This document shows positions 47,251 through 63,819 of a DNA stretch of 64,000 bases, in pieces. Both the position numbers and the translations under genes were made by a program. Source of the DNA: a virus; IMG/VR virus record IMGVR_UViG_3300012924_000001, positions 14,335-78,334 of that record. The stretch is one strand, 5' to 3'. Numbering within the stretch: the first letter of the stretch is position 1; the number at the start of each line of letters is the position of its first letter. The notes beneath the pieces are model-generated. The model did not search any database. It had not been told where the DNA came from and saw nothing but the letters and a program-made list of their open reading frames with translations.

Positions 47251-47344
47251 AATAAGATAAGTATGAGCTATGTCCAGGGGTCGAACCCGGATCTCCTCCT
47301 TCAGGAAGAATCTTGCCATTAGACCAACACAGCTACCATGAGAG

Positions 47345-50100: not shown

Positions 50101-52197
50101 ATGAGACCTTTTTTCTTTTCCCTCTTATTGCTTACTCTGCCGCTTATTACAAGAGCGCAACAGATCCTCAGCGGGAGCGATTATATATATAAGTATCAAA
50201 TGTCAGTGGGCAAGACAAATGCCAGTCCTATCAATATTACGCCTAGCCTAACATCCCCCGCTGCTTGGATCGAGATCGGGCGAGACAGCACAAATAAAGC
50301 GATGTTGTTACCCCGTGCTGTAGATACTGCTCTCGTCCTTAACCCCGTTAAAGGTCTTTTCCTTTATCAAATAAAAGATAGTACCCTTTACTACCGCAAC
50401 AGGCATAGGTGGGTAAGGGTCGGAGATGATGCCGTGTTAGCGGGTTATCTAAAAATAGCGGATAGTACAATTTATTATCCATACGCTTCTAATCCTTTGG
50501 GGTATATATCAACAGAAGCAGATCCTGTAGCAAATGGCAAAATTGTAACGTTAACACAAGGTACAGGCATCTTTATCGGAGGATCAGCTCAGTTTGTTGG
50601 AAACAATCCAACTTTTTCTATAGCGGCCAATAACACCACGGCTTTGTGGAATGCAAATGCGTTGCAAGGTATTCAAGTAGCGGCAGCTACTCCCACAACC
50701 GGGCAGCTGCTTCAGTTCAACGGTGTTAGCTGGCTTCCCCAGACAGTCACAACTTTGGGAACAGTAACGAGTGTGGGACTCGCTCTCCCTGGCGATGTGT
50801 TTAATATTGCTGGGTCTCCTGTTACCACATCCGGCACATTGAATGCCACTTTTAAACCACAGTTCGCTAATTTGTTCCTGGCCTCTCCCAATGGCATTAG
50901 CGGCCTTCCTTCGTTTAGGTCATTCGTCAATAATGATCTGCCGCTCTCAGGAGTTTCGCCCGGAACATTTGGTAGTGATACATCTGGATTAATTGTTACC
51001 GTTAATAGCCGGGGCATCATGACAAATATTAGCAATGCGCCTATTAACTTCTCAAGGTATATCATTAATCAAAGGGACAGCATACAGACCGCTGACATGC
51101 AGATATCAGGAAGGGCTGTTATAGGTGATAGTCTTGCCGTTGGTTCTACTACTCCCGCAACCGCCAACCTTCAGGTCACTGGCTCCATGAAGTTTGACCT
51201 TCCCAGTAGCGCTACCGGAGACCTGTATTACAGAAATTCTGCCGGTGAAGTCACTCGCCTACCGATTGGTACGTCCAATCAGGTATTAGTACCTTTTGGT
51301 GGTGTTCCTATATGGGGCGGTCTCCCAGGCAACTCCAACAGCTACATACGTAACAGCACAGGCTTGCAAACTTCAGCAGCCGCTTATATAGACGGTGTAT
51401 TCCGTTCACAGGGTGGTATGTGGTGTACAAAGGACGGCAACGGTGCATTTAGTCAATCCCTTTTCCTAAGCAACTTAGCAAACAACAGGGGGTGGAACTT
51501 TCAACTGAATGGAGATGCTGATCCGGGGTTAGATATATACGGAACTGATAACACTGGTTTATATACAAGGAGGTTCAGCATTCTGGCAAATGGGAATGTG
51601 GGGATAGGGAATGCCGCTCCAGCTGAAAAATTAGCTGTAACTGGGAATGCCATTATAAATGGGGATATCATTTTACCGGCCAATGGTACCCCGTGTGTGG
51701 GGTGCGTATTAACAGGGACGGACGCGGCCGGTCATGCGACTTGGCAATTTGCGACTGGCATGGTGATTCCCCTGGAAGATTTTATAACAGACGCCAATAA
51801 TAGTAGTGCTGGTACATATAGCCAGATGTACGCTTATACTATTCCGTCCAACACCTTAACCGCTACGGGAGATAAGATAAAGGCTACCTACGGGGGCCAA
51901 TTTGCCTCTAACGGCAATACAAAGGGGCTACAGGTGTTTATAAATGGTACAGGTAGTGGCGCGAGTGATGAGGCGGCTCATACAGGTGGATGGTCAACAA
52001 CAGTTACATTCATACGTACAGGAACTACAACGGGTAGGTTTGTAACAAATTTTGGCACATTGGGATCAAGAGAAGTAGCCTTAACAGGATTAGACTTTAC
52101 TGCTTCAATGACTTTTGAGTTGTGGGGGAAAGGAGGAGTTGCTACAGATGTAACAGCCATGCAGGGAGACATAATAAAATATAACGCTGCTCCATAG
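50101..52197 (+). CDS. Secreted tail-fibre-like protein (moron)
   Basis: Signal peptide ...ITRA-Q; GTVTSVGL, RLPIGT, GNVGIG fibre motifs. Confidence 0.75.
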   Translation: MRPFFFSLLLLTLPLITRAQQILSGSDYIYKYQMSVGKTNASPINITPSLTSPAAWIEIGRDSTNKAMLLPRAVDTALVLNPVKGLFLYQIKDSTLYYRNRHRWVRVGDDAVLAGYLKIADSTIYYPYASNPLGYISTEADPVANGKIVTLTQGTGIFIGGSAQFVGNNPTFSIAANNTTALWNANALQGIQVAAATPTTGQLLQFNGVSWLPQTVTTLGTVTSVGLALPGDVFNIAGSPVTTSGTLNATFKPQFANLFLASPNGISGLPSFRSFVNNDLPLSGVSPGTFGSDTSGLIVTVNSRGIMTNISNAPINFSRYIINQRDSIQTADMQISGRAVIGDSLAVGSTTPATANLQVTGSMKFDLPSSATGDLYYRNSAGEVTRLPIGTSNQVLVPFGGVPIWGGLPGNSNSYIRNSTGLQTSAAAYIDGVFRSQGGMWCTKDGNGAFSQSLFLSNLANNRGWNFQLNGDADPGLDIYGTDNTGLYTRRFSILANGNVGIGNAAPAEKLAVTGNAIINGDIILPANGTPCVGCVLTGTDAAGHATWQFATGMVIPLEDFITDANNSSAGTYSQMYAYTIPSNTLTATGDKIKATYGGQFASNGNTKGLQVFINGTGSGASDEAAHTGGWSTTVTFIRTGTTTGRFVTNFGTLGSREVALTGLDFTASMTFELWGKGGVATDVTAMQGDIIKYNAAP

Positions 52198-52215
52198 TGG
52201 AGCAGCGCTTTATTT
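52185..52215. terminator. Hairpin terminator between convergent units
   Basis: CGCTGCTCCA-TAG-TGGAGCAGCG. Confidence 0.65.
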
Positions 52216-52347
52216 CTTGTAGACTAGGTAGATACTATACCCAATTATACCAAAGCCCATCCCTCCCAGGATATAAATGGAGAAAAGGTCGTAGAAGCAA
52301 CAGGCATAAATATAGAAAATCAGCACCATTATTTTGTAGTACTTCAT
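52210..52347 (-). CDS. Small membrane protein (45 aa, not in ORF track)
   Basis: Manual translation MKYYKIMVLIFYIY... Confidence 0.45.
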   Translation of the reverse strand: MKYYKIMVLIFYIYACCFYDLFSIYILGGMGFGIIGYSIYLVYKK

Positions 52348-52353
52348 TAGCTA

Positions 52354-52695
52354 TTAATTTTGAGGTAAAAAGATAGGGCATATTTCTGCATCCATCCATA
52401 TTTTCGCATTGCTGTTCACCAAATTTGTTCTGTCCTTAAATTTAAATCCAATAACAGCCCCTTTGTTGATCTCCTTTTCTAATTCACTTCTGCTGTAGTA
52501 GCACAGTAGGCAAATGTGTGAAAAAGAATTTTCGCCCTTTTGTTTAACTTGTACTACTATTGAACAGGCCCCATTCTCTAATGCCATATCATTGTGCCTT
52601 GGGTTGTAGGCTTCAAAGGCTTCAAGATTATCAGCCTCTACACGCATCAAGGCCGCGTTTACCAATTCTATTAACTTCTTATACGTTAATCTCAT
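52354..52695 (-). CDS. Hypothetical protein, small-gene array
   Basis: Tightly packed co-oriented ORF. Confidence 0.6.
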   Translation of the reverse strand: MRLTYKKLIELVNAALMRVEADNLEAFEAYNPRHNDMALENGACSIVVQVKQKGENSFSHICLLCYYSRSELEKEINKGAVIGFKFKDRTNLVNSNAKIWMDAEICPIFLPQN

Positions 52696-52706
52696 AGTAG
52701 TGATTT

Positions 52707-53105
52707 TTAAAGTACATTAATTATTTCATATCCCAGCGCTTTGAGTCTGTTGAGTCCAGGTATATACGTGTCCTTTTCTTTTCCTGCAATAGAGAGATAG
52801 TCCGGAGATACTGTTACCTCTTCCTTGTAAAGCTGGATTCCTGCAAAACATAGCCCATTTAAGGCATTTCCAAATGGCCATGGTTCGGTTTCCCCAAGGT
52901 ACTGGTGAATAAGTTTCTCCCCTTCATAGACATCTATCCGGATATAGTTTTCCCTTGCATAGGAAACGTGTATTCTCCCGATAGCGTTTAGATCAGGCGC
53001 AGGGGACAATATCATATAGATTCCGATTTGTTTAACCCACCAGGACATGCTGATAGGTTTGTATTTCTTCGGTGGCTCTGTGCCGTCCTTTTTTCTTCTT
53101 CCCAT
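52707..53105 (-). CDS. Hypothetical protein, small-gene array
   Basis: Tightly packed co-oriented ORF. Confidence 0.6.
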   Translation of the reverse strand: MGRRKKDGTEPPKKYKPISMSWWVKQIGIYMILSPAPDLNAIGRIHVSYARENYIRIDVYEGEKLIHQYLGETEPWPFGNALNGLCFAGIQLYKEEVTVSPDYLSIAGKEKDTYIPGLNRLKALGYEIINVL

Positions 53106-53117
53106 TTGTTTATGGCT

Positions 53118-53381
53118 TTAAAAATACTTGATAAAATGCTCTATTTGTGAATGCACCAAGATAAGGTGTTCCGGTGTTTTATAGTAATTATGAGGGTTGT
53201 AAAAGTTCAATGCTAATTCCTCATAAAGATCAGGGAGATGAGTTTTTACATGCCTATCTATTATCTTTTTGTTAGCGCGTGTAGCCCCTTTCATTAGCTC
53301 TTCCCATTTGTTTATTGAAATAGCGGTGCAATTAGTCTCATATTCTAACCCGTAAATAAAATTTGGTGTTTTCATGATCAT
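53118..53381 (-). CDS. Hypothetical protein, small-gene array
   Basis: Tightly packed co-oriented ORF. Confidence 0.6.
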   Translation of the reverse strand: MIMKTPNFIYGLEYETNCTAISINKWEELMKGATRANKKIIDRHVKTHLPDLYEELALNFYNPHNYYKTPEHLILVHSQIEHFIKYF

Positions 53382-53396
53382 TGCTTTTTAGTTAGC

Positions 53397-53442
53397 TCCC
53401 GCTGGCGGTAATGAACCGCACAACGTCTGCCGTTCAGCGGGA
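53397..53442 (-). ncRNA. tRNA-like element lacking the anticodon arm
   Basis: UCCCGCUG/CAGCGGGA stem, D-like AACG-GCAGA-CGUU, T-like GCGG-UUCAUUA-CCGC. Confidence 0.55.
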
Positions 53443-53447
53443 AGGGA

Positions 53448-53570
53448 TTATATAATGTATGGAAGATAGGCCCCTATCTCAGGACATAGCATTAGGATAG
53501 CTATTATCCCAAAGAAAAAAAGGGCACATATAATCCAAAACAGGATATCTTTTATTTTGAGGCGCTTCAT
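53448..53570 (-). CDS. Small single-TM protein
   Basis: MKRLKIKDILFWIICALFFFGIIAIL. Confidence 0.55.
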   Translation of the reverse strand: MKRLKIKDILFWIICALFFFGIIAILMLCPEIGAYLPYII

Positions 53571-53598
53571 GGGTATCTGTTTAATAGATGAACAAGTA

Positions 53599-53862
53599 TT
53601 ATATCTGATCCATTTCAATGTTACTTCCAAAGAGGTGTGGATTTTCAAACTGTAACAGTATATTTAGTCTCAAAAGGATTAATATACTTTCCCGGTTAAG
53701 GTCTTCAAATTCCTGGTCAGCCTTGTAAAGGTTGTATGCTTCTTTCTTTATTCCTTCTTGTTCTTTATCGTACTTCTCTTGATCAATCTGTGACATCCCC
53801 CTGTTCAGTAAATAACGCCTTTTTAGACTTTTAACTTTCCGGTTTAATTCAGCTTTTGTCAT
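53599..53862 (-). CDS. Hypothetical protein, paralog of 57229..57504
   Basis: Shared IK.EA..LY..D...R.NI.L.FE.PH.FGS motif. Confidence 0.65.
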   Translation of the reverse strand: MTKAELNRKVKSLKRRYLLNRGMSQIDQEKYDKEQEGIKKEAYNLYKADQEFEDLNRESILILLRLNILLQFENPHLFGSNIEMDQI

Positions 53863-53919
53863 AAATTAATTGTTTTATGGTTTGAAAATATGATAGTCTT
53901 ACGGGACTATCCGTTATGT

Positions 53920-54186
53920 TTATCTTCCTTTAAAACTGTCAATGAGTGGTCTATAATTCTCATAAGCAGCATTCAAAGTACGTTCAACAAAATCCTTTCT
54001 GAAGTGGTAGGGAGCCTCTTTAGGCTTAACTCCTCTTTCGTAATAGTCTTTTAGCTGGTCCTGGCTCCATTCCTCCCACGCTTGTTTAATTGCGGTGTCT
54101 ATTGTATTGTACAGTGAGGAATCAAACATCTCCGCTTTGTGGTTGGCGATCTCGATGGCAATACGGTTATATAGTGGCTGTGGCAT
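53920..54186 (-). CDS. Hypothetical protein, small-gene array
   Basis: Co-oriented ORF. Confidence 0.6.
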   Translation of the reverse strand: MPQPLYNRIAIEIANHKAEMFDSSLYNTIDTAIKQAWEEWSQDQLKDYYERGVKPKEAPYHFRKDFVERTLNAAYENYRPLIDSFKGR

Positions 54187-54197
54187 AATGAAAAGAT

Positions 54198-54455
54198 TTA
54201 ATGGTGAATAAGAGGGATATTACTAGCGTGTTGTTGTGCCAACATTGTAAGATGGCAGTTAATTTCCCATTGCAATGAGTCATTGAGGCCGGAAATAAAA
54301 ATTAAAAGATTATCGGCTGTTCTTCTTTTGCCGATTAGAAAGGCCTGATCTGAGGCCGGGATGTCTCTAAAGATCGTGTTAATTAGTTGGGCTGCACCCA
54401 ATGTGTTTAACTGTTCGTAGGCGTGTAGCAGCGGTTGAATTGTTGTTTGTTCCAT
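54198..54455 (-). CDS. Hypothetical protein, small-gene array
   Basis: Co-oriented ORF. Confidence 0.6.
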   Translation of the reverse strand: MEQTTIQPLLHAYEQLNTLGAAQLINTIFRDIPASDQAFLIGKRRTADNLLIFISGLNDSLQWEINCHLTMLAQQHASNIPLIHH

Positions 54456-54480
54456 AGATGTTAAAGTGTGTGGTGAATAA

Positions 54481-54891
54481 TCAATATTGAAATTCTGAAT
54501 AATGCCAGTTCTTTGGCTGTTGTCTATTCCAGCATTCTAACAATAGTTTACCATTCTCAGCGGTAAGGCCATATATAAAACTACAGCCTTCCTTATTACT
54601 GGGGAGGTGTTTCCATTTGTACCAGTATTCTGAAGCGCCTTTATAATACTCATGGGTATACGATATACCCTTCGATCCAGTATGTTCACTTAGCCACATT
54701 ACATCGTTGTAACTTTTTGGATCAACATTTAATTTAAAGGTCAGAATGTTGCCGTACTCTGGAATGTTGTATTTGTCCCTCCAAAGGGAATACATTGTTA
54801 AGGCCTCATTAGGTGTAATCACTTCTGGACTGATAGTTGAAAATTCAATAGTCCCCAAAAATTCTTCTATGTTATAAACTGCATATGTCAT
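54481..54891 (-). CDS. Hypothetical protein, small-gene array
   Basis: Co-oriented ORF. Confidence 0.6.
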   Translation of the reverse strand: MTYAVYNIEEFLGTIEFSTISPEVITPNEALTMYSLWRDKYNIPEYGNILTFKLNVDPKSYNDVMWLSEHTGSKGISYTHEYYKGASEYWYKWKHLPSNKEGCSFIYGLTAENGKLLLECWNRQQPKNWHYSEFQY

Positions 54892-54932
54892 TTTATTCGG
54901 TTTTAGTGAACACCCGGCATGTACCGGGCCGC

Positions 54933-54960
54933 ACGGTTTTTACGCCCTAATCACTCTGTA
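54933..54960. repeat. 28-bp direct repeat, copy 1
   Basis: ACGGTTTTTACGCCCTAATCACTCTGTA; one mismatch to 55452-55479. Confidence 0.9.
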
Positions 54961-55406
54961 AAATCAGTTTCTTTTGGCCATTCTGTAGGCGATATCCAAT
55001 TATCAGAACCACCGCTACCGTCCATATCTGCAAGTTCTACGGCTATATGCTGCTCAAGGGTTAAACCGTTAATACTCTTGCCCCCCTCAATAATAGAAGC
55101 GGCAAATTCTTGTGCAATTTTATATGCAAAATCGTACATCTGTGAGCTACTGAAGTCCCTGTCGTCTTGCGGTTCTAACTCATCGTATGGGATTGGGGAA
55201 ACTCCCTTTTTCATAGTAAAGCCATTGAACCACTTTCCAACTAAGGAAGATGCTATAGATAATGCAATCCCTTTGTCAGTCAGTTTATTTATGATGGTTT
55301 TTTCTGAGTAATTTTGATGTTTAAGAAAAAAGTTGTTAATCCAATTTTGGATATTTTCCGAGAAATACAGTTCGCGGAGGTCTTCAAATTTGATTTCATT
55401 TTCCAT
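54951..55406 (-). CDS. Acidic hypothetical protein
   Basis: ORF lying between the two 28-bp repeats. Confidence 0.6.
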   Translation of the reverse strand: MENEIKFEDLRELYFSENIQNWINNFFLKHQNYSEKTIINKLTDKGIALSIASSLVGKWFNGFTMKKGVSPIPYDELEPQDDRDFSSSQMYDFAYKIAQEFAASIIEGGKSINGLTLEQHIAVELADMDGSGGSDNWISPTEWPKETDFTE

Positions 55407-55451
55407 GGTAGTATATTTTAGTTTTTTGAATGTTGAATGAATACTGGAGGA

Positions 55452-55479
55452 ACGGTTTTTACGCCCTAATCACCCTGTA
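55452..55479. repeat. 28-bp direct repeat, copy 2
   Basis: ACGGTTTTTACGCCCTAATCACCCTGTA. Confidence 0.9.
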
Positions 55480-55703
55480 GCACCTACTTTGATCCATTCA
55501 TTAAAGCCTAAATTAAAACGTATAGGATCGTTTTTTCGTAACAAAACGCCAAGTATATGGTTGGCATGAGCGCTATATATAACGGAGCGTGCTATTTTGC
55601 CGTTTTTAAAGTAGCAAAATTGTTCGTATGCCTCTTCAGCTGAGTAAATATCCGCGAAAAGGTCATTTAAGTAGTCGGTATATGCTTTTTTGGTCTTATT
55701 CAT
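55470..55703 (-). CDS. Hypothetical protein (LRKNDPIRFNLGFNEW motif)
   Basis: Recurrent phage early-gene motif. Confidence 0.6.
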   Translation of the reverse strand: MNKTKKAYTDYLNDLFADIYSAEEAYEQFCYFKNGKIARSVIYSAHANHILGVLLRKNDPIRFNLGFNEWIKVGATG

Positions 55704-55705
55704 TT

Positions 55706-56278
55706 TCAATCTTTTGAATGTTGAATAAAAATTGGTTCTACGGGTATGCTGTGAATAGCGCCGGTAAAATGGCCCTTATCAAAAGCGCTTCCTAATGAGG
55801 TAAAAGTAACCTCATCTGTATTGCGCACTACCTTTTTTAGTGTCTCTGTATTGGGCTTATGTTCGCCAGCATAAATAGCGATAGATTGGTAGGGAAGTAT
55901 TTGCATCATATTCGCTATTCTTTTTCGTGGTAGTAGATATTTAATAAATAAGCAATTATCATACTGGGCATAGTTTCGTACATATACATTTACTAGAGTG
56001 CAAATAAAAGAGGTGCAATATCCCCATTCTCCCGACCTAACGATAGTTGCTTTCTTGTCAAGTAAAGAGTTTAACTTGTTAACTGTGTCCTGTAAGAAAT
56101 CCGGGATGGGATATACTGACCACGCTAAGCGGTCTACTTCCATATGCATATCGCGCTCAAATATACGTCCGCTTGCAAAGACTATATCATAAAGTTCTGA
56201 AAGCGCACCCCTATTGCGCAGGGGACCATGTTTGATAAATAATTCAATTGCTTTTTCTTTGATCTGTTCGTTTGTCAT
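55706..56278 (-). CDS. Hypothetical protein, small-gene array
   Basis: ATGA overlap at 56275-56278 supports this start. Confidence 0.6.
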   Translation of the reverse strand: MTNEQIKEKAIELFIKHGPLRNRGALSELYDIVFASGRIFERDMHMEVDRLAWSVYPIPDFLQDTVNKLNSLLDKKATIVRSGEWGYCTSFICTLVNVYVRNYAQYDNCLFIKYLLPRKRIANMMQILPYQSIAIYAGEHKPNTETLKKVVRNTDEVTFTSLGSAFDKGHFTGAIHSIPVEPIFIQHSKD

Positions 56279-56553
56279 AATGATGATTTTATCTTTTTTA
56301 AATGCTTCTTGCAAAACCATCCCGAAAAGACGCTGCATTGATAATATGTTGTTTTGTATCCTACAGCCTGTTTTTTACAGTGCCATGCGCTACAGACGGG
56401 TAGGTCAAAGCTAACGTCCTTTATGCGCTCTGTTTTCACTCCAAAGCTGTCTGTATAGAACGGTACTCGCTTTTCCTGCGCCTGTGAAAATAGGGGTAGC
56501 AGAATGAGAATTATTATATGCTTCATTTGGTACGATGTTTTATGTGTTTCCAT
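56275..56553 (-). CDS. Small protein with signal-peptide-like segment
   Basis: MKHIIILILLPLFSQA-Q; four Cys. Confidence 0.5.
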   Translation of the reverse strand: METHKTSYQMKHIIILILLPLFSQAQEKRVPFYTDSFGVKTERIKDVSFDLPVCSAWHCKKQAVGYKTTYYQCSVFSGWFCKKHLKKIKSSL

Positions 56554-56563
56554 ACAAGTATAT

Positions 56564-56821
56564 TTAAAGAGTGATTTTTATTTCTTTTATACCGAGCGCT
56601 TTTGCATAAGAAGCGAGAAACGCAATACCTCCGTTTTGTTTGGTTCGGTTCAATTCACTTTCAAAATGTGTAATATTAGTACGGTTACATCTTACTCTTT
56701 TCGCTAAATCTTCTATTGAGATGTTAAGGACATCTCTAAATAGTTTCATTTGCTGACCTGTATGTTTGTCCGCATTTATTGTAACTGATTTTAGTTTGAC
56801 GTCTTTTCGCTGTCTTTTCAT
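56564..56821 (-). CDS. XRE-family HTH protein
   Basis: ISIEDLAKRVRCNRTNITHFE...YAKALG. Confidence 0.75.
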   Translation of the reverse strand: MKRQRKDVKLKSVTINADKHTGQQMKLFRDVLNISIEDLAKRVRCNRTNITHFESELNRTKQNGGIAFLASYAKALGIKEIKITL

Positions 56822-56822
56822 T

Positions 56823-57209
56823 TTATTGTAATTCAGCTTTACTTAACTCTTCACAAAATTCCTTAAACTCTTCTGTGTAATTCCCCTCTTCGTCGAATAC
56901 TTCATAATCAATAGAGTCATACTCGCAAAAAAGAGGGTAATTTTCTTTTGAATTATATGTTGTTTTGAAAAACAATGGTGTCTCATTCAGGGTGAAAGTG
57001 ATATTCATAACAGTCAAATGACCATCACTTACAAGCCCAATTACAAATGGTTCTCCGTCATGCTCGAATTGCATGTCATTCAAACCAAAGCCCTCATGAA
57101 TAAGTATTGTTAACCTGCCAATACATTTTAATAGCTTTGATACGTTGTAGGCGTCACGCGGCAACACGTGAAAAAAGCCTGTATCTATTGTTTGCCCTGT
57201 GTGGTACAT
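56823..57209 (-). CDS. Hypothetical protein, small-gene array
   Basis: Co-oriented ORF. Confidence 0.6.
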   Translation of the reverse strand: MYHTGQTIDTGFFHVLPRDAYNVSKLLKCIGRLTILIHEGFGLNDMQFEHDGEPFVIGLVSDGHLTVMNITFTLNETPLFFKTTYNSKENYPLFCEYDSIDYEVFDEEGNYTEEFKEFCEELSKAELQ

Positions 57210-57228
57210 ATATTTTTTGTTTGAAGGA

Positions 57229-57504
57229 TTATAATTGTTTTATATCTATACTGCTGCCAAAACGATGTGGCTCCTCAAAACGAAGATGGATATTTATACG
57301 CATCAATATTTTTAGACTACCTAAACTCATTATTTCAATTTTCAGATCAAGAAGATATAATCTTAATGCCTCTTCTTTAATATGCCCCATTTCTGTATGA
57401 TAAGCGTCTTCCTTTTTTTCTTGGGCCTTTAAATAATGATTCTTTAGCTTTTTGATTTGGTTATTATATTGACGGGATGTTAATGTTTTTTGTGTGTTTT
57501 CCAT
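57229..57504 (-). CDS. Hypothetical protein, paralog of 53599..53862
   Basis: Shared motif. Confidence 0.65.
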   Translation of the reverse strand: MENTQKTLTSRQYNNQIKKLKNHYLKAQEKKEDAYHTEMGHIKEEALRLYLLDLKIEIMSLGSLKILMRINIHLRFEEPHRFGSSIDIKQL

Positions 57505-57515
57505 GCTTATATAAT

Positions 57516-57719
57516 TTAAGCGGTTACTTCAGACTTGTATAATTCGTATGCGGCTTTCCGTAAAGCTGTTGGGGTAAGGTAAAACTTGCCATTGCCATGC
57601 AGTTCATTACGGCCAAGATATTCCGCTACTTTATTTTGCACAGTAGTACGCGGTTCTTTTATCGGCTCTTTGAGTTTCTTACACGCGGTTTGGAATTGAT
57701 TCCATGTTAGTTTGTCCAT
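57516..57719 (-). CDS. Hypothetical protein, small-gene array
   Basis: Co-oriented ORF. Confidence 0.6.
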   Translation of the reverse strand: MDKLTWNQFQTACKKLKEPIKEPRTTVQNKVAEYLGRNELHGNGKFYLTPTALRKAAYELYKSEVTA

Positions 57720-57739
57720 ATGCTATAATTAAATGGTGA

Positions 57740-58156
57740 TTAATAGGTTTTGAATGCGCGTTTCAGCGTTCTTTTAGCGGAGGTATGGTATTCACTATCC
57801 GAGTTAAAATAGTCGTTAATATACTCCTTTAAATGGTCACACTCGGCACTATTGGACCATTCTATTTGCAAGGGAGTGTAGTTTTTAAAATAATCCTTAT
57901 CCGTATCACCTTCCTGAACGGCGAAGCGGCCTAACAGCCCTGCCATAGCTACTAGGCTGTCAATCCCATAAAGTATAGACGGTTTGAAATCTTTTCCACT
58001 AAATAACTCTTTACCGTTCCACCAAAAAGAGTAACGTACATTATCGCCCCCTGTATAAAATGTATAACAGGCAATTTTTAGCTTGCGCATTATCAGGGTA
58101 GATAACAGATTTTCATCTGCTAACAATTGTTCGTGTGTGGGCTGTTTTGTTTCCAT
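57740..58156 (-). CDS. Hypothetical protein, small-gene array
   Basis: Co-oriented ORF; GDTDKDYF..YTP.Q.EW motif. Confidence 0.6.
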   Translation of the reverse strand: METKQPTHEQLLADENLLSTLIMRKLKIACYTFYTGGDNVRYSFWWNGKELFSGKDFKPSILYGIDSLVAMAGLLGRFAVQEGDTDKDYFKNYTPLQIEWSNSAECDHLKEYINDYFNSDSEYHTSAKRTLKRAFKTY

Positions 58157-58164
58157 ATTAAAAG

Positions 58165-58440
58165 TTATTTAATACATGCGGTTATTGTTTGTCCTGTAGC
58201 GCTTACCTGGATGGGTTTACCAATGTTGGCAAGAATAGTCTCATATTCCTGGGTAGCTATTTTGATAGCTTCCGCGTACTTTTCGGAGTTATCAAACACT
58301 TTCAGCTCTAAGGGTCTGAAATAAACATGCGCTATCGTATGATAGTCCCCAGCCGTTTCTTTGCGCTTATCTGCGTATACATAAGCATTCGGATAAGTGC
58401 CAATGAATAGCCAATCAGGGATTACAATTTTTGTGTTCAT
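58165..58440 (-). CDS. Hypothetical protein, small-gene array
   Basis: Co-oriented ORF. Confidence 0.6.
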   Translation of the reverse strand: MNTKIVIPDWLFIGTYPNAYVYADKRKETAGDYHTIAHVYFRPLELKVFDNSEKYAEAIKIATQEYETILANIGKPIQVSATGQTITACIK

Positions 58441-58499
58441 AGTATACAGTTTTAAGTATTAATCAATAAACTCAATGACTTTATTCTTTGTTTGTATTA

Positions 58500-58880
58500 T
58501 CAAAAAATAATTTCACCGTAAAATACAGTCTGTAGTAAAACATCAGCGGTTACGGCATCGTCTATGTCATTTATAAAATCGCTTAAATAATCAAACGGCA
58601 TTTTTGAGACGCCTATATGTACGTCTGATAGTTTAATTTGTTTTATACCCTCACTTCCTTCCTTATCCTCAAACGATAGCGTTCCCCCATCCTTTAAAAT
58701 TTGCATCCAAACATCTTCAATGCAGGGGTTTGTTAGTGAGGCCTTGGCTGTCTTATACTCCTGTTCATCGTAGGTCAATTCAATTCCGTGAGCGGCCATA
58801 TACCCACTGCTAACAGCATTACAGAGGGCCAAATGAAAGTACTTTTCTGATTCCTCATGCGTTAATAATATCTGTGCCAT
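58500..58880 (-). CDS. Hypothetical protein (DAVTADVLLQ...GEII motif) directly downstream of hammerhead 1
   Basis: Recurrent phage motif. Confidence 0.65.
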   Translation of the reverse strand: MAQILLTHEESEKYFHLALCNAVSSGYMAAHGIELTYDEQEYKTAKASLTNPCIEDVWMQILKDGGTLSFEDKEGSEGIKQIKLSDVHIGVSKMPFDYLSDFINDIDDAVTADVLLQTVFYGEIIF

Positions 58881-58897
58881 ATTCTTTATTTTTATTT

Positions 58898-58950
58898 GGT
58901 TAAGACCCCGCTTGTCGGGGTTTCACAGAGTAACCGATCATCAGTTAACC
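58898..58950 (-). ncRNA. Type I hammerhead ribozyme (variant), HH1
   Basis: GGUUAA-CUGAUGA-UCGG UUACU CUGU-GAAA-CCCCG ACAAG CGGGG-UC^UUAACC. Confidence 0.85.
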
Positions 58951-58958
58951 TTTAGTCC

Positions 58959-59129
58959 TCATCCGGGGTATGTAATGGGAGTTGTCATCCATTCCGTATC
59001 TATTACTAGCACATTCGCTGTGCTGAATATCTCATACTCAGAATTTTGTTCTAGTTCCTCAATGGCATCCGCTACACTGAGAGCGGACTGTATCTTTATT
59101 TTGATGATAGCATAAATTGTTGTTTCCAT
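58959..59129 (-). CDS. Small acidic protein (56 aa, not in ORF track)
   Basis: METTIYAIIKIK...; preceded by TAACCTTTAAAC. Confidence 0.65.
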   Translation of the reverse strand: METTIYAIIKIKIQSALSVADAIEELEQNSEYEIFSTANVLVIDTEWMTTPITYPG

Positions 59130-59161
59130 AATAAATAAGTTTAAAGGTTATTAATACTATT

Positions 59162-59347
59162 CTATACCAAACTAAAATTACGCCACCATGAGCCAATAGT
59201 ATGCCGTTGTCCTAGATCATTGGTTACGGTTACTTCCATTAATGCAGCAACGCTTTCAATCGGGTTTTTAAGCTCATACGTGCGGCCTTTAGTAAAGCAT
59301 TTACCAAGGTTATACAGGTCTTTTTTCGCTTTTATTTTCGTGTACAT
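59162..59347 (-). CDS. Hypothetical protein, small-gene array
   Basis: Co-oriented ORF. Confidence 0.6.
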   Translation of the reverse strand: MYTKIKAKKDLYNLGKCFTKGRTYELKNPIESVAALMEVTVTNDLGQRHTIGSWWRNFSLV

Positions 59348-59348
59348 A

Positions 59349-59591
59349 TCAATGTAGTTTAGCGGTTAATTTTGTTTGAAAGCGGCCCCCAAAGGAAAAG
59401 TAGGTGTTACATGGTTCTATTTCCTTACGGTCAAAATGCATTTTTGCGTCATCTGGGGTTATCCAGCCGTTTGTAATGGCCTTGTTGATCTCTGTAGGAG
59501 TATACAGTTCATCCCTTACCAGAAAGGTATTGGAAAAGTGGACACTCAGAGGGACTTGATCTGAACTTTTTTTCACTTTGTAGTATAACAT
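59349..59591 (-). CDS. Hypothetical protein, small-gene array
   Basis: Co-oriented ORF; ELYTP...YFSFG.RF motif. Confidence 0.6.
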   Translation of the reverse strand: MLYYKVKKSSDQVPLSVHFSNTFLVRDELYTPTEINKAITNGWITPDDAKMHFDRKEIEPCNTYFSFGGRFQTKLTAKLH

Positions 59592-59612
59592 ATATAGTGG
59601 TTTTAGGATTAT

Positions 59613-59867
59613 TTAATCGGCCATTAGTGGCTGTTTGGCTATGTGTGTTACCAGCATTCGGACAGCGAGAACGTTTAATTGTTCTAGCGCGCTGATAGCC
59701 GATTCCGCTGTATAATATGCATGTGTGCGCATCTGTTTAAGTGACTTGTTTCTACATTTGCCATCTGAATAGTGGTAAGTACGTCCGGCGCTATCGACAA
59801 TATACCAGTAGGTAGTAGCACGACCAGCTAAGAAGTATCGATTGCTCTTTATAGTGTACAGGTACAT
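59613..59867 (-). CDS. Hypothetical protein, small-gene array
   Basis: Start at MYLYTIK after an A-rich leader. Confidence 0.55.
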   Translation of the reverse strand: MYLYTIKSNRYFLAGRATTYWYIVDSAGRTYHYSDGKCRNKSLKQMRTHAYYTAESAISALEQLNVLAVRMLVTHIAKQPLMAD

Positions 59868-59889
59868 AATAATGTAGTTTAAGGAGTAT

Positions 59890-60420
59890 CTAAAAATCAA
59901 AATCGATAACAACTGTAGTTCCTTTCTTCTTACCAAAGCCACCCCCTAACACGTCATTAAATGGCACATACCAGTATTTACGCGCCTGGTGGTTATATCC
60001 TTGCGCCACATATACCTGAGCGGATACACGGCCACCCTTAAACAGGAGCTTAAAGTAATCGCCCTTTTTAACCTTCTCAATTGTGGTTTGGCCTTGTATC
60101 TTATTGATAATTTCCGCATTCGCTTTGATTACCATATCCAGCCTATTACTTATGTCATTAAGAGCTATCGTATTACCTTCCCGTTGTAGCTTATCGGCAA
60201 GGGCACTTAACCCATCTACAGGCACGGTTTGAGCGTTATAAATCTCATTTACATAAGCGGCTTTAGTCCTTCCCATCGCTCCACACACAGTACAGCGTAC
60301 CTGAGAAGATTTAGTAGGTTTTATCTTACCAGTGCGATAACTCCAATAGTGCCTGTATTGCGTAATTACATATTTGCTTCTATCGCGTGGCCTGCATTGG
60401 CAGGAAAATCGTATTGACAT
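59890..60420 (-). CDS. Hypothetical protein with N-terminal Zn-ribbon
   Basis: CQC...CTVC. Confidence 0.6.
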   Translation of the reverse strand: MSIRFSCQCRPRDRSKYVITQYRHYWSYRTGKIKPTKSSQVRCTVCGAMGRTKAAYVNEIYNAQTVPVDGLSALADKLQREGNTIALNDISNRLDMVIKANAEIINKIQGQTTIEKVKKGDYFKLLFKGGRVSAQVYVAQGYNHQARKYWYVPFNDVLGGGFGKKKGTTVVIDFDF

Positions 60421-60430
60421 AATAACAGGT

Positions 60431-60676
60431 TTACAGGTTATTGAAAGAGGGCTGATAACCGATCATACCCTTGTGTAACATACCAACTATAGTAAACTCT
60501 GATTCGCTGCCGTTTAGCGTTATTCCGTCCATATGTGTTAATCCTATGCAATAATCATTCAGCAGGCATATAATAAGATACTGCCCTATGCGGTCTTTAA
60601 TAACACGATAAGCAGTAGATGCCCACTGTACATTGTGACCTGAATCAACAGCTTGTTTAATTTCTGTAACTGTCAT
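60431..60676 (-). CDS. Hypothetical protein, small-gene array
   Basis: Co-oriented ORF. Confidence 0.6.
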   Translation of the reverse strand: MTVTEIKQAVDSGHNVQWASTAYRVIKDRIGQYLIICLLNDYCIGLTHMDGITLNGSESEFTIVGMLHKGMIGYQPSFNNL

Positions 60677-60696
60677 AATAGAGTTCGGTTTAAAGG

Positions 60697-60966
60697 TTAA
60701 TACATTTTATCTATGGGCAGATGTTCGCCCCCGTCTGCATCCCTACAGATTGCGCGGTAGCCAGCACAATCAATGGCCGGTCTATTTTCATGTGCGAGGC
60801 GCTTTACTTGCGTTTCAAGTGCCAATAATTCGTCATTATCCCCCTCATCTTCTTGTGGGGAATAATCAGCTACAAAGGGCATTGTGAAATAAGGCCAATC
60901 CTGCGTCAATTGTCCGTTGTGGTCTAATTTCCATATTTCTAGTGTCCAATTATTATTTGTTTCCAT
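60697..60966 (-). CDS. Acidic hypothetical protein directly downstream of hammerhead 2
   Basis: Co-oriented ORF. Confidence 0.6.
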   Translation of the reverse strand: METNNNWTLEIWKLDHNGQLTQDWPYFTMPFVADYSPQEDEGDNDELLALETQVKRLAHENRPAIDCAGYRAICRDADGGEHLPIDKMY

Positions 60967-60988
60967 CTGAAAAGATTTAAAGGTTATT

Positions 60989-61041
60989 GACTAATAGGGG
61001 CCTTTTACCCCTTTCACGTAATAAACGATCATCGGTTAGCC
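60989..61041 (-). ncRNA. Type I hammerhead ribozyme (variant core CCGAUGA), HH2
   Basis: GGCUAA-CCGAUGA-UCGU UUAUU ACGU-GAAA-GGGGU AAAAG GCCCC-UA^UUAGUC. Confidence 0.75.
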
Positions 61042-61052
61042 TTGTAATAGGT

Positions 61053-61358
61053 TTAAAGGAATTTATAAATAAGCCTGATACTCACTATATCCCCTTCTTT
61101 GCTATCTATCTGTACCGTGTTTATGTCTATGACTGAAAATTCATCTTTTTTAGGCCAATCAACCCAGCTGTCTTTAAAAGCCTGATCTTTTTCTCGCCAT
61201 GTTTTTAGGGCAAAAGAATTGCTTTGTACGATAGATACTTCCCTTTCATCATGTAGCTGTATGAGCTTTAGATTCCCCTGTTTGTCTGCCCAATGTAATT
61301 CAGAATATATTTTTGTACCAGGGGTAACACGTTTTTTGAAGTCTGAAATAGTCTGCAT
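61053..61358 (-). CDS. Hypothetical protein, small-gene array
   Basis: Start at MQTISDF after the TAACCTTTAAAC motif. Confidence 0.6.
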   Translation of the reverse strand: MQTISDFKKRVTPGTKIYSELHWADKQGNLKLIQLHDEREVSIVQSNSFALKTWREKDQAFKDSWVDWPKKDEFSVIDINTVQIDSKEGDIVSIRLIYKFL

Positions 61359-61368
61359 AGTAATAGGT

Positions 61369-61560
61369 TTAAAGGTTAAGGTTTTTAATATAGTTTTTTG
61401 CAACTGTCCATGCCTTACTGCGCGTGGGTTGGGCAGCGTTTAAATAAAAACTATCCGATATAGTTTTACTATAAAACATTATAACAGGATAGTATTGTAC
61501 ATGCCCTTTGTGATTTGATTTGGACGTGGAGGGCTTGTAAGTTACGTTTTGCTGTGCCAT
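61369..61560 (-). CDS. Hypothetical protein, small-gene array
   Basis: Preceded by the motif. Confidence 0.6.
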   Translation of the reverse strand: MAQQNVTYKPSTSKSNHKGHVQYYPVIMFYSKTISDSFYLNAAQPTRSKAWTVAKNYIKNLNL

Positions 61561-61571
61561 AATCTAATGGT

Positions 61572-61835
61572 TTACAGGTTATCATTGATGTGTTGAACGA
61601 TGGCTGTATAAGTGGAGTCCGGCACTGGCTCCCGCTGTATTTTGGGCAGGAAGGGGGAGATAGGGTACAACTGCACACGATATACAGGCAGTTCATTTGA
61701 CTTGTCCTGTGTGATAAAGATATGCAGGCCGTCCGGCGCATTGTCTGCTATCCAGTCCATGAGTAATTCAAGGGCCGGGCCTTCCTTTGATATAAGGAGG
61801 GCGTTTTTATTGATAAGATAATATGCTTTGTTCAT
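61572..61835 (-). CDS. Hypothetical protein, small-gene array
   Basis: Preceded by a motif variant. Confidence 0.6.
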   Translation of the reverse strand: MNKAYYLINKNALLISKEGPALELLMDWIADNAPDGLHIFITQDKSNELPVYRVQLYPISPFLPKIQREPVPDSTYTAIVQHINDNL

Positions 61836-61846
61836 GATACGATAGT

Positions 61847-62038
61847 TTAAAGAGTTTGTAGTTTTAAAAGTATATCGGTCCAGTATGCAACAATGGTTAT
61901 ATCATCGGTATAGTATATGACATTGGGGTCATTCCACATTGTACGCTCCTGTGCCTGCTCTATTGCTTTATTTAGATCGGTAACCTCAATAGACTTGCCT
62001 AATAGATCAGTTATGTAAATTTTGTTTGTAGTGTCCAT
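61847..62038 (-). CDS. Hypothetical protein, small-gene array
   Basis: IEVTDLNKAIEQA...YWTD motif. Confidence 0.6.
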   Translation of the reverse strand: MDTTNKIYITDLLGKSIEVTDLNKAIEQAQERTMWNDPNVIYYTDDITIVAYWTDILLKLQTL

Positions 62039-62055
62039 AGTATGTTAGTTAAGAG

Positions 62056-62379
62056 TTATTGATTAATATACAGTGTAGCATACTGATACCCCCAAAAATT
62101 AGACTGTATGAGCAGCATGTTTTTGCTGTTCCTTATAGCTATTTTCATACAGTCATTAACAAATTGCTGAGTGTCCTTAATTAATCTTGGACCAACAATA
62201 CTAAAATCAAAACTATAGAAGCTATGTTTTGTATCAACGGTTGTTCTACAGGTATCAATCTCGCAAACAATAGCCTTGTTTTGCTTGGCATAGTCATATA
62301 CTATAGTAACCTGCTCAGCGGGTGATAATTCATTAATGTTTGCCGGTAAGCCTATTATATTGGGAATGGTGATTGCCAT
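62056..62379 (-). CDS. Hypothetical protein, small-gene array
   Basis: Preceded by a motif variant. Confidence 0.6.
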   Translation of the reverse strand: MAITIPNIIGLPANINELSPAEQVTIVYDYAKQNKAIVCEIDTCRTTVDTKHSFYSFDFSIVGPRLIKDTQQFVNDCMKIAIRNSKNMLLIQSNFWGYQYATLYINQ

Positions 62380-62389
62380 AAGAACAGGT

Positions 62390-62629
62390 TTAAAGATTAT
62401 AGTTAGGATGTGCGGTCATCTTTAGCAAGGGACTAACGCACACGTGTTGAAATGTGATAGGGTCTGTAACTGCCCATAAGAGCCTGTGGCGGTCCGCTGG
62501 CTTGTAAGACTTGTAGTTGATACGCTGATCTATTGTAAGCTCAAAATACGGGCTGTAATAGCCGTGGAAATGATTTTGAAAGATGATACTACGGAAGGTA
62601 AGTTGCTGGGAAGTGTTGTTTGTGGTCAT
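62390..62629 (-). CDS. Hypothetical protein, small-gene array
   Basis: Preceded by the motif. Confidence 0.55.
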   Translation of the reverse strand: MTTNNTSQQLTFRSIIFQNHFHGYYSPYFELTIDQRINYKSYKPADRHRLLWAVTDPITFQHVCVSPLLKMTAHPNYNL

Positions 62630-62662
62630 AGTATGTTAGTTTAAAGGTTAAGAGTGATCCAC

Positions 62663-62959
62663 TCAAATGTTATACGGTAACTGGTACAATTCTGTACTGT
62701 TAAGGGTATAAAAATGCACGGGTTCAGCTTGCCGCTGTTCAATAAATGTCACATACTCATCAAAGGACACTTCTTTGGGGTCACGCCCATTTAAGTACAT
62801 ATTGAGTGAAGCGTCCTTTGTGTCGTTGCGCATAGCGAAGGTGTTAAAGGCTGTATCAGGCTGTTGGTCATTGGCAACTATGTATATTACTATACCTTGT
62901 TCAAAGAGCAGCCGCGCCTGTCTGTGTGTGATTTCTAACAATGTTAGGGTGTGGTTCAT
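62663..62959 (-). CDS. Hypothetical protein, small-gene array
   Basis: Preceded by a motif variant. Confidence 0.6.
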   Translation of the reverse strand: MNHTLTLLEITHRQARLLFEQGIVIYIVANDQQPDTAFNTFAMRNDTKDASLNMYLNGRDPKEVSFDEYVTFIEQRQAEPVHFYTLNSTELYQLPYNI

Positions 62960-62969
62960 AGTAAACAGG

Positions 62970-63341
62970 TTAAAGGTTATTAGATTCCATTTTAACAGGC
63001 GCTAAATACTCCCGCGTGCCGATATGCTTAAAGAGTAGTGCAGCGCTGCCTGTATCCGCGTCTTTCATCCCCATGTACATATAATGACCCGCAAAGTTAG
63101 GGGACGCGGGATCAGCAGATAATATACCGGCGTTGATAGCATGAGCAAAGCAGTCTTTTGCGCTTGGACCGTTTATAGGGAAGCTCTTTTTAAGGTCCTC
63201 AATCTGCTGCTTAATTGTTAAGCGAGTAGCGGGATCAATAGTACGAACCATACGCGCAGTGAGCAGCTCAATGAGCTTATGGGGATCGGTAGTGTTAGCG
63301 ATCATGCGATCTATGATAATAGTCATGTTCATTCCGTTCAT
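62970..63341 (-). CDS. Hypothetical protein (YMYMG...FKHI.TREYL motif)
   Basis: Preceded by the motif. Confidence 0.6.
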   Translation of the reverse strand: MNGMNMTIIIDRMIANTTDPHKLIELLTARMVRTIDPATRLTIKQQIEDLKKSFPINGPSAKDCFAHAINAGILSADPASPNFAGHYMYMGMKDADTGSAALLFKHIGTREYLAPVKMESNNL

Positions 63342-63359
63342 GATATATAAGTTTAAAGG

Positions 63360-63563
63360 TTAAAGTGAATTGATTTCATTATCTAAAAGGTGGTGCCCCG
63401 CTTCCACGTACTTTGTGGCATATACTTCAAAGCCGTCTCCTTCAGGGAAGCGCGTTTTGAAGTCGTTATAGATGGCTTTAAGCGCTTTACCGCTTGTAAT
63501 ACTGCGCTTATGAGTGGCAAAATAATGTACGCCTTTAAGTGACACGATAATTTCGTAGTACAT
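63360..63563 (-). CDS. Hypothetical protein (YEIIVSL.G.HYFAT..RSI motif)
   Basis: Recurrent phage early-gene family. Confidence 0.65.
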   Translation of the reverse strand: MYYEIIVSLKGVHYFATHKRSITSGKALKAIYNDFKTRFPEGDGFEVYATKYVEAGHHLLDNEINSL

Positions 63564-63573
63564 ACAATGTAGT

Positions 63574-63801: not shown

Positions 63802-63819
63802 AGTTATGTAGTTTAAAGG

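What the first reader, a model, noticed from the sequence alone, without database searches (positions are those of the whole stretch)
53397..53442. 46-nt anticodon-less tRNA mimic between two small genes
Seen (minus strand): 8-bp stem UCCCGCUG/CAGCGGGA, hairpin AACG-GCAGA-CGUU resembling the GGCAGACG D-loop region of Leu-type tRNAs, then GCGG-UUCAUUA-CCGC resembling a T arm. The 8+4 bp equal the 12-bp acceptor/T coaxial length of tRNA. There is no anticodon arm or CCA, and the T-loop lacks the usual A58. Known: RNase P and RNase Z recognise the elbow and this helix length. Inference: it is a host-nuclease processing signal or a decoy for tRNA-targeting defence nucleases.
Basis: partly seen in the sequence, partly recalled or inferred. 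Interest (0 to 1): 0.7.

Follow-up and report, generated by a model that had tools for sequence, protein, structure and literature searches.

The report
Orphan branched RNA stem between phage genes
A very stable 46-base folded RNA sits between two tiny genes of an uncultivated soil phage, but tests do not support it being a tRNA look-alike; it is most likely an ordinary within-operon RNA structure that shapes transcript stability or cutting.

Summary
On the minus strand, 53397-53442 folds into an 8-bp closing stem that encloses two short hairpins. The fold has MFE -23.8 kcal/mol and z = -3.5 against shuffles. It is the fourth most stable 46-nt locus in this complete 78-kb phage; the three above it are simple hairpins with U tracts. 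It lies 5 nt after the stop of a real 40-aa membrane-peptide gene and 15-21 nt before the next start, inside a co-oriented array of small genes.

The tRNA-mimic reading is not supported:
- The Rfam tRNA model and ARAGORN find nothing here, yet both find a separate tRNA-like gene at 47266-47333.
- The "T loop" lacks A58 and is predicted to close to 5 nt.
- The "D arm" splits between two registers of about equal probability.
- There is no CCA.

Five distant relatives of the downstream gene (40-57% aa identity) have no such element. A relative about 94% identical in DNA aligns across the region without indels.

With no U tract and no promoter motif downstream, a canonical terminator is unlikely.

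Best reading (about 0.4): an intercistronic RNA structure that acts as a stability or processing determinant, in an array that also carries hammerhead ribozymes. No family could be assigned. Interest is modest.

The parts
53397..53442 (-). 46-nt branched RNA structure (the whole element)
   Evidence: Sequence. MFE -23.8, z -3.5. Fourth most stable 46-nt locus in the phage genome. Single copy.
53435..53442 (-). 5' arm of the 8-bp closing stem (UCCCGCUG)
   Evidence: Pair probabilities 0.66 for the terminal U-A pair and 0.99-1.0 for the other seven pairs.
53397..53404 (-). 3' arm of the 8-bp closing stem (CAGCGGGA)
53420..53434 (-). 15-nt 5'-side segment that may form a weak hairpin A (the supposed D arm)
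   Evidence: Two competing registers: AACG/CGUU with a 5-nt loop (p about 0.45), or a 5-bp stem with two G-U pairs and a 4-nt loop (p about 0.52).
53405..53419 (-). Hairpin B (the supposed T arm): GCGG(U)-UCAUU-(A)CCGC
   Evidence: Pair probabilities 0.98-1.0 for 5 bp, including U28-A34, leaving a 5-nt loop. Read as a 7-nt loop, UUCAUUA matches the tRNA T-loop consensus at UUCA but has U where A58 should be.
53448..53570 (-). Upstream gene: 40-aa peptide with one hydrophobic helix. Its TAA stop lies 5 nt before the stem.
   Evidence: ORF. In a relative about 94% identical in DNA, a 291-nt deletion joins the previous gene's start codon in frame to codon 3 of this ORF (read). This argues that the ORF is translated.
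53382..53396 (-). Unstructured A-rich leader (GCUAACUAAAAAGCA) between the element and the next start codon
   Evidence: There is no U tract after the stem.
53118..53381 (-). Downstream gene: 87-aa protein of unknown function (probable start at 53375)
   Evidence: ORF. Homologs start at the second ATG. No Pfam or PHROG family.
52183..52209 (.). Bidirectional hairpin+U terminator, the likely end of the minus-strand transcription unit that contains the element

Best explanation
The element is a structured RNA inside a polycistronic transcript of the phage's small-gene array (minus strand). An 8-bp GC-rich stem stacks on a 5-bp hairpin, with a 15-nt side segment on the 5' side. I propose that it acts as a stability or processing determinant within the operon. 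It would block 3'-to-5' exonucleases and so protect the upstream message (the 40-aa membrane-peptide gene). It may also mark the boundary next to the single-stranded A-rich leader, where a host endonuclease can cut. The result would be uncoupled levels of the genes on either side.

Shown: the fold, its exceptional stability, its position inside an operon, and its presence without indels in a close relative.

Inferred: that it acts as RNA, and the barrier/processing mechanism.

It belongs to no described RNA family and appears specific to this phage lineage.
For: - The fold is real and far beyond chance. It is the only branched structure among the most stable loci listed for the genome.
- At 0.56 GC, its spacer is the most GC-rich spacer of 25 nt or more in an array where most genes are 1-22 nt apart.
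- The three-way fold is more stable on the transcribed (minus) strand (-23.8) than its mirror on the plus strand (-19.9).
- It sits inside a transcription unit. There is no Bacteroidota -7 motif (TAnnTTTG) on the minus strand between 56406 and the bidirectional terminator at 52183-52209. Four genes downstream therefore depend on transcription passing through it.
- There is no U tract, whereas this phage's clear terminators have one.
- Two other long spacers of the same array carry hammerhead cores: CUGAUGA...GAAA...GUC at 58881-58958 and CCGAUGA...GAAA at 60967-61052. Such arrangements in prophages have been interpreted as cutting long transcripts into gene-length mRNAs (PMC3088659). RNA-level segmentation is thus a feature of this array.
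- A soil contig about 94% identical in DNA (X4) aligns across 53362-53564 without indels, although the genes on both sides were rearranged.
- From established knowledge, not tested here: intercistronic stem-loops protect upstream mRNA from 3' exonucleases (REP in malE-malF), and phage T7 early transcripts are cut at intergenic structures.
Against: - There is no covariation evidence.
- Five more distant relatives of the downstream gene have no comparable structure at that junction. The element is therefore dispensable for that gene family.
- The exact halves are not found in IMG/VR. The 44-nt core, allowing up to 3 mismatches, is not found in 401 sampled Bacteroidota genomes.
- A plain hairpin would serve as an exonuclease barrier, so this model does not explain the branch.
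- No RNA end data exist.
Confidence: 0.4

Rival explanations
1. tRNA-like processing signal, a bacterial-virus counterpart of plant mitochondrial t-elements. The stacked closing stem and hairpin B mimic the acceptor/T-arm helix, so host RNase P and/or RNase Z cut at its borders and release the flanking mRNAs.
For: - Hairpin B abuts the 3' strand of the closing stem with no unpaired base, as the T arm does in tRNA, giving a 12-13-bp stack.
- The 15-nt side segment sits where positions 8-48 of a tRNA would be.
- Read as 7 nt, the loop starts UUCA like a T loop.
- The absence of CCA is compatible with RNase Z substrates (general knowledge).
- The same array uses ribozymes for cutting.
- t-elements and simple stem-loops are proposed RNase P/Z signals in plant mitochondria (PMC1920247).
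Against: - The Rfam tRNA model gives no match at E <= 10, locally or genome-wide, while it scores 38.6 bits on 47266-47333.
- ARAGORN finds nothing here.
- A58, the partner of U54 in the T-loop motif, is U. Position 60 is A and pairs with U54 in the predicted fold, closing the loop to 5 nt.
- The D-like hairpin is ambiguous and too short to offer a GG for an elbow contact.
- The element is not conserved in distant relatives.
Confidence: 0.12
2. Non-canonical (U-tract-less) transcription terminator or attenuator that lowers transcription of the last four genes of the array.
For: It is a GC-rich stable structure directly after a stop codon. It ranks with the phage's terminators in stability.
Against: - There is no U tract; the stem is followed by GCUAACUAAAAAGC.
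- Three of the phage's four other most stable hairpins, at gene ends, are followed by a clear U run.
- No promoter motif follows, so efficient termination would silence four genes.
- A branched fold is not the usual terminator shape.
Confidence: 0.15
3. No dedicated function: a GC-rich remnant that happens to fold well, such as a recombination scar at a mosaic joint or a decayed fragment of a gene or tRNA.
For: - It is lineage-specific and absent from all distant relatives examined.
- The surrounding junctions are recombination-active in the close relative, with a 291-nt deletion and a 275-nt insertion flanked by an 18-nt duplication.
- Hairpin A is ill-defined.
Against: - Three nested or adjacent inverted repeats, giving the fourth most stable fold in 78 kb x 2 strands, are unlikely by accident.
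- It is retained without indels while both neighbouring genes changed.
Confidence: 0.2
4. Binding site for a phage or host protein, either as an RNA operator or as a double- or single-stranded DNA site.
Against: - It is not adjacent to the candidate integrase (39449-40855, weak PF00589 match), which lies 12.5 kb away, so it is not an attP core.
- It is single copy.
- The 8-bp arms are 30 bp apart, unlike usual operators.
- The neighbouring proteins have no recognisable nucleic-acid-binding family.
Confidence: 0.08
5. A new small self-cleaving ribozyme, or a C4/CI-type processed antisense RNA.
For: - It lies in an array with hammerheads, the kind of neighbourhood in which new ribozyme classes were found (general knowledge).
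- A closing stem with two hairpins is also the outline of the P1 C4 and P4 CI RNAs (general knowledge).
- Rfam also misses the variant hammerhead core read at 58881-58958 in this window, so an Rfam blank is weak evidence.
Against: - The junction has almost no unpaired bases.
- There is no hammerhead core (CUGANGA/GAAA) in the element.
- By inspection, there is no downstream partner for an HDV-like P2 helix and no G-U at the base of P1.
- Rfam gives no ribozyme or C4 match at E <= 10.
- No site in the phage genome is complementary to both loops at 7-mers or longer, apart from the element's own antisense.
Confidence: 0.03

Closest known systems
Intercistronic mRNA stem-loops that set differential stability within operons (e.g. 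REP in E. coli malE-malF; the intergenic processing structures of the phage T7 early transcript)
   Same: A stable GC-rich structure in a spacer inside a polycistronic unit, just after a stop codon, with no U tract and no promoter after it.
   Different: It is single copy rather than a dispersed repeat. The helix is only 12-13 bp and interrupted, shorter than the roughly 20 bp typical of RNase III sites. It is branched. Neither function nor cutting has been shown.
Plant mitochondrial t-elements and acceptor-like stem-loops (PMC1920247)
   Same: A short structured element between coding regions that could offer an acceptor/T-like stacked helix to RNase P or RNase Z. It lacks a functional anticodon.
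   Different: t-elements are non-canonical cloverleaves of about 74 nt, with a well-conserved pseudouridine (T) arm in the cox1 example, and mapped RNA ends coincide with them. Here the T-loop consensus is broken at A58, the element is 46 nt, and no ends are known.
Hammerhead ribozymes flanking genes in prophages (PMC3088659)
   Same: The same genomic setting. Two spacers of this very array carry hammerhead cores, and the three-way-junction outline is shared.
   Different: No catalytic core. The junction strands here are 0-2 nt, against the 7 + 3 + 1 conserved nucleotides of a hammerhead.
tRNA (Rfam RF00005)
   Same: A terminal stem of 7-8 bp, and a hairpin stacked on its 3' strand whose loop starts UUCA.
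   Different: No anticodon arm, no A58, no defined D arm, no CCA, and no covariance-model match.

Membership tests
tRNA (RF00005) | Covariance-model score at or above the gathering score (29 bits) | tested here: not met
   No match at E <= 10 in 53340-53500, and none in the whole phage genome except 47266-47333 at 38.6 bits. ARAGORN finds nothing here.
tRNA (RF00005) | T loop of 7 nt with U54...A58 (UUCRANY) | tested here: not met
   The loop is UUCAUUA. Position 58 is U, position 60 is A, and U54-A60 are predicted to pair (p 0.98), leaving 5 nt.
tRNA (RF00005) | Anticodon arm and a defined D arm with GG | tested here: not met
   There is no third internal arm. Hairpin A has two registers at p of about 0.45 and 0.52.
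tRNA-like RNase P/Z signals (t-elements) | 12-bp acceptor/T-type stacked helix | tested here: inconclusive
The helices abut, so stacking is possible but has not been shown.
tRNA-like RNase P/Z signals (t-elements) | RNA 5'/3' ends coinciding with the borders of the element | not testable with these tools
   No RNA end data could be obtained with these tools. An experiment is needed.
Intrinsic (factor-independent) terminator | GC-rich hairpin followed by a U tract, at the end of a transcription unit | tested here: not met
   It is not listed among the 28 terminator-like sites. The tail is GCUAACUAAAAAGC. Four co-oriented genes follow without a promoter motif.
Hammerhead ribozyme | Core CUGANGA ... 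GAAA ... UH at a three-way junction | tested here: not met
   The element contains no GAAA. CUGAACG replaces the first core strand. Junction strands are 0-2 nt.
HDV-like / theta ribozymes | Nested double pseudoknot with a P2 partner downstream and G-U at the base of P1 | tested here: not met
   By inspection, the next 60 nt hold no complement to the 15-nt segment, and the first pair is U-A. There is no Rfam match.
C4/CI antisense RNAs (RF01695) | Model match, and two loops complementary to paired target sites in the phage | tested here: not met
   No Rfam match. No dual-loop target at 7-mers or longer.
Intercistronic stabiliser/processing stem-loops | Stable structure in a spacer inside an operon | tested here: met
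Intercistronic stabiliser/processing stem-loops | Measured effect on the half-life or ends of the flanking mRNA segments | not testable with these tools
   Requires an experiment.

The most novel reading that the evidence does not exclude
The element is a minimal, anticodon-less acceptor/T-arm mimic that recruits host RNase P or RNase Z. On this reading, the phage segments one polycistronic transcript with two different devices, self-cleaving hammerheads and a host-enzyme tRNA-like signal. That would be a bacterial-virus equivalent of mitochondrial tRNA punctuation and t-elements.
Probability: 0.1. Interest if true: 0.7.

Novelty: new member of a known kind. Interest (0 to 1): 0.3.

Why it matters
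If the element is a within-operon stability or processing structure, it is an ordinary device. It would add one more piece to a phage gene array that visibly invests in RNA-level segmentation, with two hammerhead-type spacers nearby.

It would matter more if RNase P or RNase Z cut it, because tRNA-like punctuation of mRNAs is well known in organelles but not established for phage operons.

The result is also a caution. A 46-nt fold can look tRNA-like to the eye while failing every model-based test, even though a separate tRNA-like gene in the same genome passes the tRNA model.

Tried and rejected
- **Rfam:** at gathering score over the whole window there were 0 matches. At E <= 10 on 161 nt around the element, the only hit was a chance 13.9-bit match to AS1726 on the opposite strand. 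At E <= 1 on 52200-64000 there was nothing. Rfam also reports no hammerhead match for the hammerhead-like core read at 58881-58958, so these blanks are weak evidence.
- **Relatives by protein:** the two flanking 87-aa proteins found no relative in IMG/VR. A 679-aa structural protein found only a 4.5-kb fragment.
- **GenBank phages:** no DNA match.
- **Exact halves of the element in IMG/VR:** 0 matches.
- **The 44-nt core, up to 3 mismatches, in 401 sampled Bacteroidota genomes:** not found in those searched.
- **Covariance model R1:** built from the single sequence. It found only the element itself, plus a 24-bit hit in a Bacteroidales MAG. That hit looked like compensatory change but lies in frame inside a 470-aa bacterial gene, so it was rejected as chance.
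- **The look-up of encoding contigs:** The 19-kb contig of the close relative could not be read. Read laying did not display the substitutions between 53362 and 53564.
- **Sequencing runs:** no RNA holder was listed. Runs X2 and X3 are near-identical low-depth fragments. The X2 pieces leave 53415-53454 uncovered, which proves nothing.
- **Antisense-target search:** only chance-level 6-mer matches for the two loops.
- **attP idea:** the only integrase-like ORF is 12.5 kb away.
- **Read-through or frameshift idea:** the 40-aa ORF, 19 sense codons across the element, a second TAA and the next gene share one frame. No slippery site was found, and TAA read-through has no support.
- **Analogous structures in relatives:** a scan of the related loci for stable folds found only ordinary hairpins.
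- **Earlier scan notes:** no look-alike on other DNA.

Full report
**Source and setting.** The window is bases 14335-78334 of a complete 78,334-bp IMG/VR virus record with direct terminal repeats. Sequencing runs that hold it are soil metagenomes. Homologs of a neighbouring gene lie in Bacteroidales and Prolixibacteraceae MAGs, which points to a Bacteroidota host.

From about 64 kb down to 52.2 kb the minus strand carries 38 small co-oriented ORFs in my greedy ORF call. Most are separated by 1-22 nt. The array ends at a bidirectional hairpin+U terminator at 52183-52209.

**Observation.** RNAfold gives an 8-bp closing stem that encloses two hairpins. The MFE is -23.8 kcal/mol, against a shuffle mean of -13.6 (z = -3.5).

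I folded every 46-nt window on both strands of the whole phage (mean -5.7, sd 3.4). This locus is the fourth most stable. The three above it (40937-40990, 52171-52220, and one about 8 kb before the window) are plain hairpins followed by U runs. The element is the only branched fold among the most stable loci listed.

The partition function adds two qualifications:
- Hairpin B is predicted with 5 bp and a 5-nt loop, because U28 and A34 pair.
- Hairpin A is divided between two registers (about 0.45 and 0.52).

The robust core is an 8-bp stem stacked on a 5-bp hairpin, with a 15-nt segment on the 5' side.

**Gene context.** The element begins 5 nt after the TAA of a 40-aa ORF with one hydrophobic helix. 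It ends 15 nt before ATG 53381, or 21 nt before ATG 53375, which is the start used by homologs.

The 40-aa ORF is probably real. In a 19-kb soil contig about 94% identical in DNA (X4), a 291-nt deletion (53564 to 53856, with two bases in between) joins the start codon and second codon of the preceding gene in frame to codon 3 of this ORF (read).

The same contig aligns across 53362-53564 without indels. It then carries 275 extra bases, flanked by an 18-nt duplication of the next gene's start region. The element is thus present while both neighbours changed. The positions of the 11 substitutions in that piece were not displayed, so it gives no covariation evidence.

**Tests of tRNA mimicry.**
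- ARAGORN finds nothing here.
- The Rfam tRNA model gives no hit at E <= 10 in a 161-nt search or over the whole genome.
- The same model scores 38.6 bits (gathering score 29) on 47266-47333, a separate tRNA-like gene with a 4-nt anticodon loop. The method does work in this genome.
- The loop UUCAUUA matches the T-loop consensus at four positions but has U at 58. That position is the partner of U54 in the defining reverse-Hoogsteen pair. The loop also has A at 60, which closes it further.
- The D-like hairpin is not defined.
- There is no CCA.

What survives is the geometry. Hairpin B abuts the 3' strand of the closing stem, giving a 12-13-bp stack with a side segment where the rest of a tRNA would be. 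That is compatible with an RNase P/Z minihelix-type substrate, as proposed for t-elements and stem-loops in plant mitochondria (PMC1920247). It is not evidence for one.

**Conservation.**
- The downstream 87-aa protein has two relatives in the large protein collection.
- Five loci in metagenomes and MAGs encode relatives at 40-57% identity. None has a structured element at the corresponding junction. Their most stable local folds are ordinary hairpins.
- Exact halves of the element are absent from IMG/VR.
- The 44-nt core, with up to 3 mismatches, was not found in 401 sampled Bacteroidota genomes.
- A covariance model built from the single sequence found a 24-bit hit with apparent compensatory changes in a Bacteroidales MAG. 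That hit lies inside a 470-aa bacterial ORF and is chance.

The element is single copy and lineage-specific.

**What it is not.**
- *Not a canonical terminator.* There is no U tract, although three of this phage's four other most stable hairpins have one. No Bacteroidota -7 motif lies on the minus strand between 56406 and the end of the array, so four genes downstream need read-through.
- *Not attP.* The only integrase-like ORF (39449-40855, 17.3 bits to PF00589) is 12.5 kb away.
- *Not a hammerhead or HDV-like ribozyme,* by core inspection. Rfam gives no ribozyme match. However, Rfam also reports no hammerhead for the hammerhead-like core at 58881-58958, so that blank is weak.
- *Not a C4/CI-type antisense RNA.* No dual-loop targets were found.

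**Best explanation.** Two other long spacers of the same array carry hammerhead cores. An earlier follow-up in this scan confirmed the one at 60984-61041. Perreault et al. interpreted such arrangements as cutting long phage transcripts into gene-length mRNAs (PMC3088659). Within such an array, an exceptionally stable structure inside the operon is most simply an RNA stability or processing determinant. It lies just after a stop codon and before an unstructured A-rich leader. It would act as a 3'-exonuclease barrier for the upstream message, a boundary next to an endonuclease-accessible leader, or both.

I put this at about 0.4. The mechanism is inferred, not shown, and it does not explain the branch.

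Rivals:
- no function, a remnant (0.2)
- U-less attenuator (0.15)
- tRNA-like RNase P/Z signal (0.12)
- protein-binding site (0.08)
- new ribozyme or antisense RNA (0.03)

**Novelty and score.** This is an orphan member of a known kind of feature (intercistronic mRNA structure). Nothing found here would surprise a specialist. The tRNA-like reading would be interesting but has no positive support beyond helix geometry. Interest is 0.3.

Noticed in passing
window 47266-47333 (-): A tRNA-like gene scores 38.6 bits on the Rfam tRNA model (gathering score 29). Its acceptor, D and T arms are intact, but the anticodon loop has only 4 nt. ARAGORN calls it tRNA-??? with a 2-nt anticodon. It lies just upstream of an ERF-family recombinase gene (PF04404, 70 bits). 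The whole-window gathering scan missed it.
   Followed up: partly
window 53362-53379 and 53564-53856, compared with soil contig X4: A 19-kb contig about 94% identical in DNA has two rearrangements. A 291-nt deletion removes the 87-aa gene at 53599-53862 and fuses its start codon in frame to codon 3 of the 40-aa ORF. A 275-nt insertion before the 87-aa gene at 53118-53381 is flanked by an 18-nt duplication of that gene's start region. Gene-start sequences appear to act as recombination joints.
   Followed up: partly
window 53375-53570 (-): The 40-aa ORF, 19 sense codons running through the element, a second TAA and the next gene all share one reading frame. No slippery site or read-through context was found, so this is probably coincidence.
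   Followed up: partly
window 58881-58958 and 60967-61052 (-): Two spacers of the small-gene array contain hammerhead cores (CUGAUGA/GAAA/GUC and CCGAUGA/GAAA). Rfam gives no hammerhead match in the 52200-64000 scan at E <= 1, or for the first spacer alone at E <= 10. They are variant forms that library scans miss.
   Followed up: partly
window 54892-54950 and 55407-55469 (-): Two spacers that bracket one gene both begin with the same 18 nt (UUAGGGCGUAAAAACCGU). The first continues into a 7-bp GC hairpin.
   Followed up: no
window 39449-40855 (+) and 40937-40990: A 468-aa ORF has only a weak match to the C-terminal catalytic part of tyrosine integrases (PF00589, 17.3 bits, below the cut-off). 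It is followed by the most stable hairpin+U terminator of the genome. It may be a very divergent integrase.
   Followed up: no
L006 (Bacteroidales MAG) and L007 (Prolixibacteraceae MAG); L003-L005 (metagenome contigs): The 87-aa protein next to the element belongs to a small family with a conserved KWEELMKGATRAN motif and an IEHFIK C-terminus. It is found in Bacteroidota MAGs and phage-like contigs and has no Pfam or PHROG family.
   Followed up: partly
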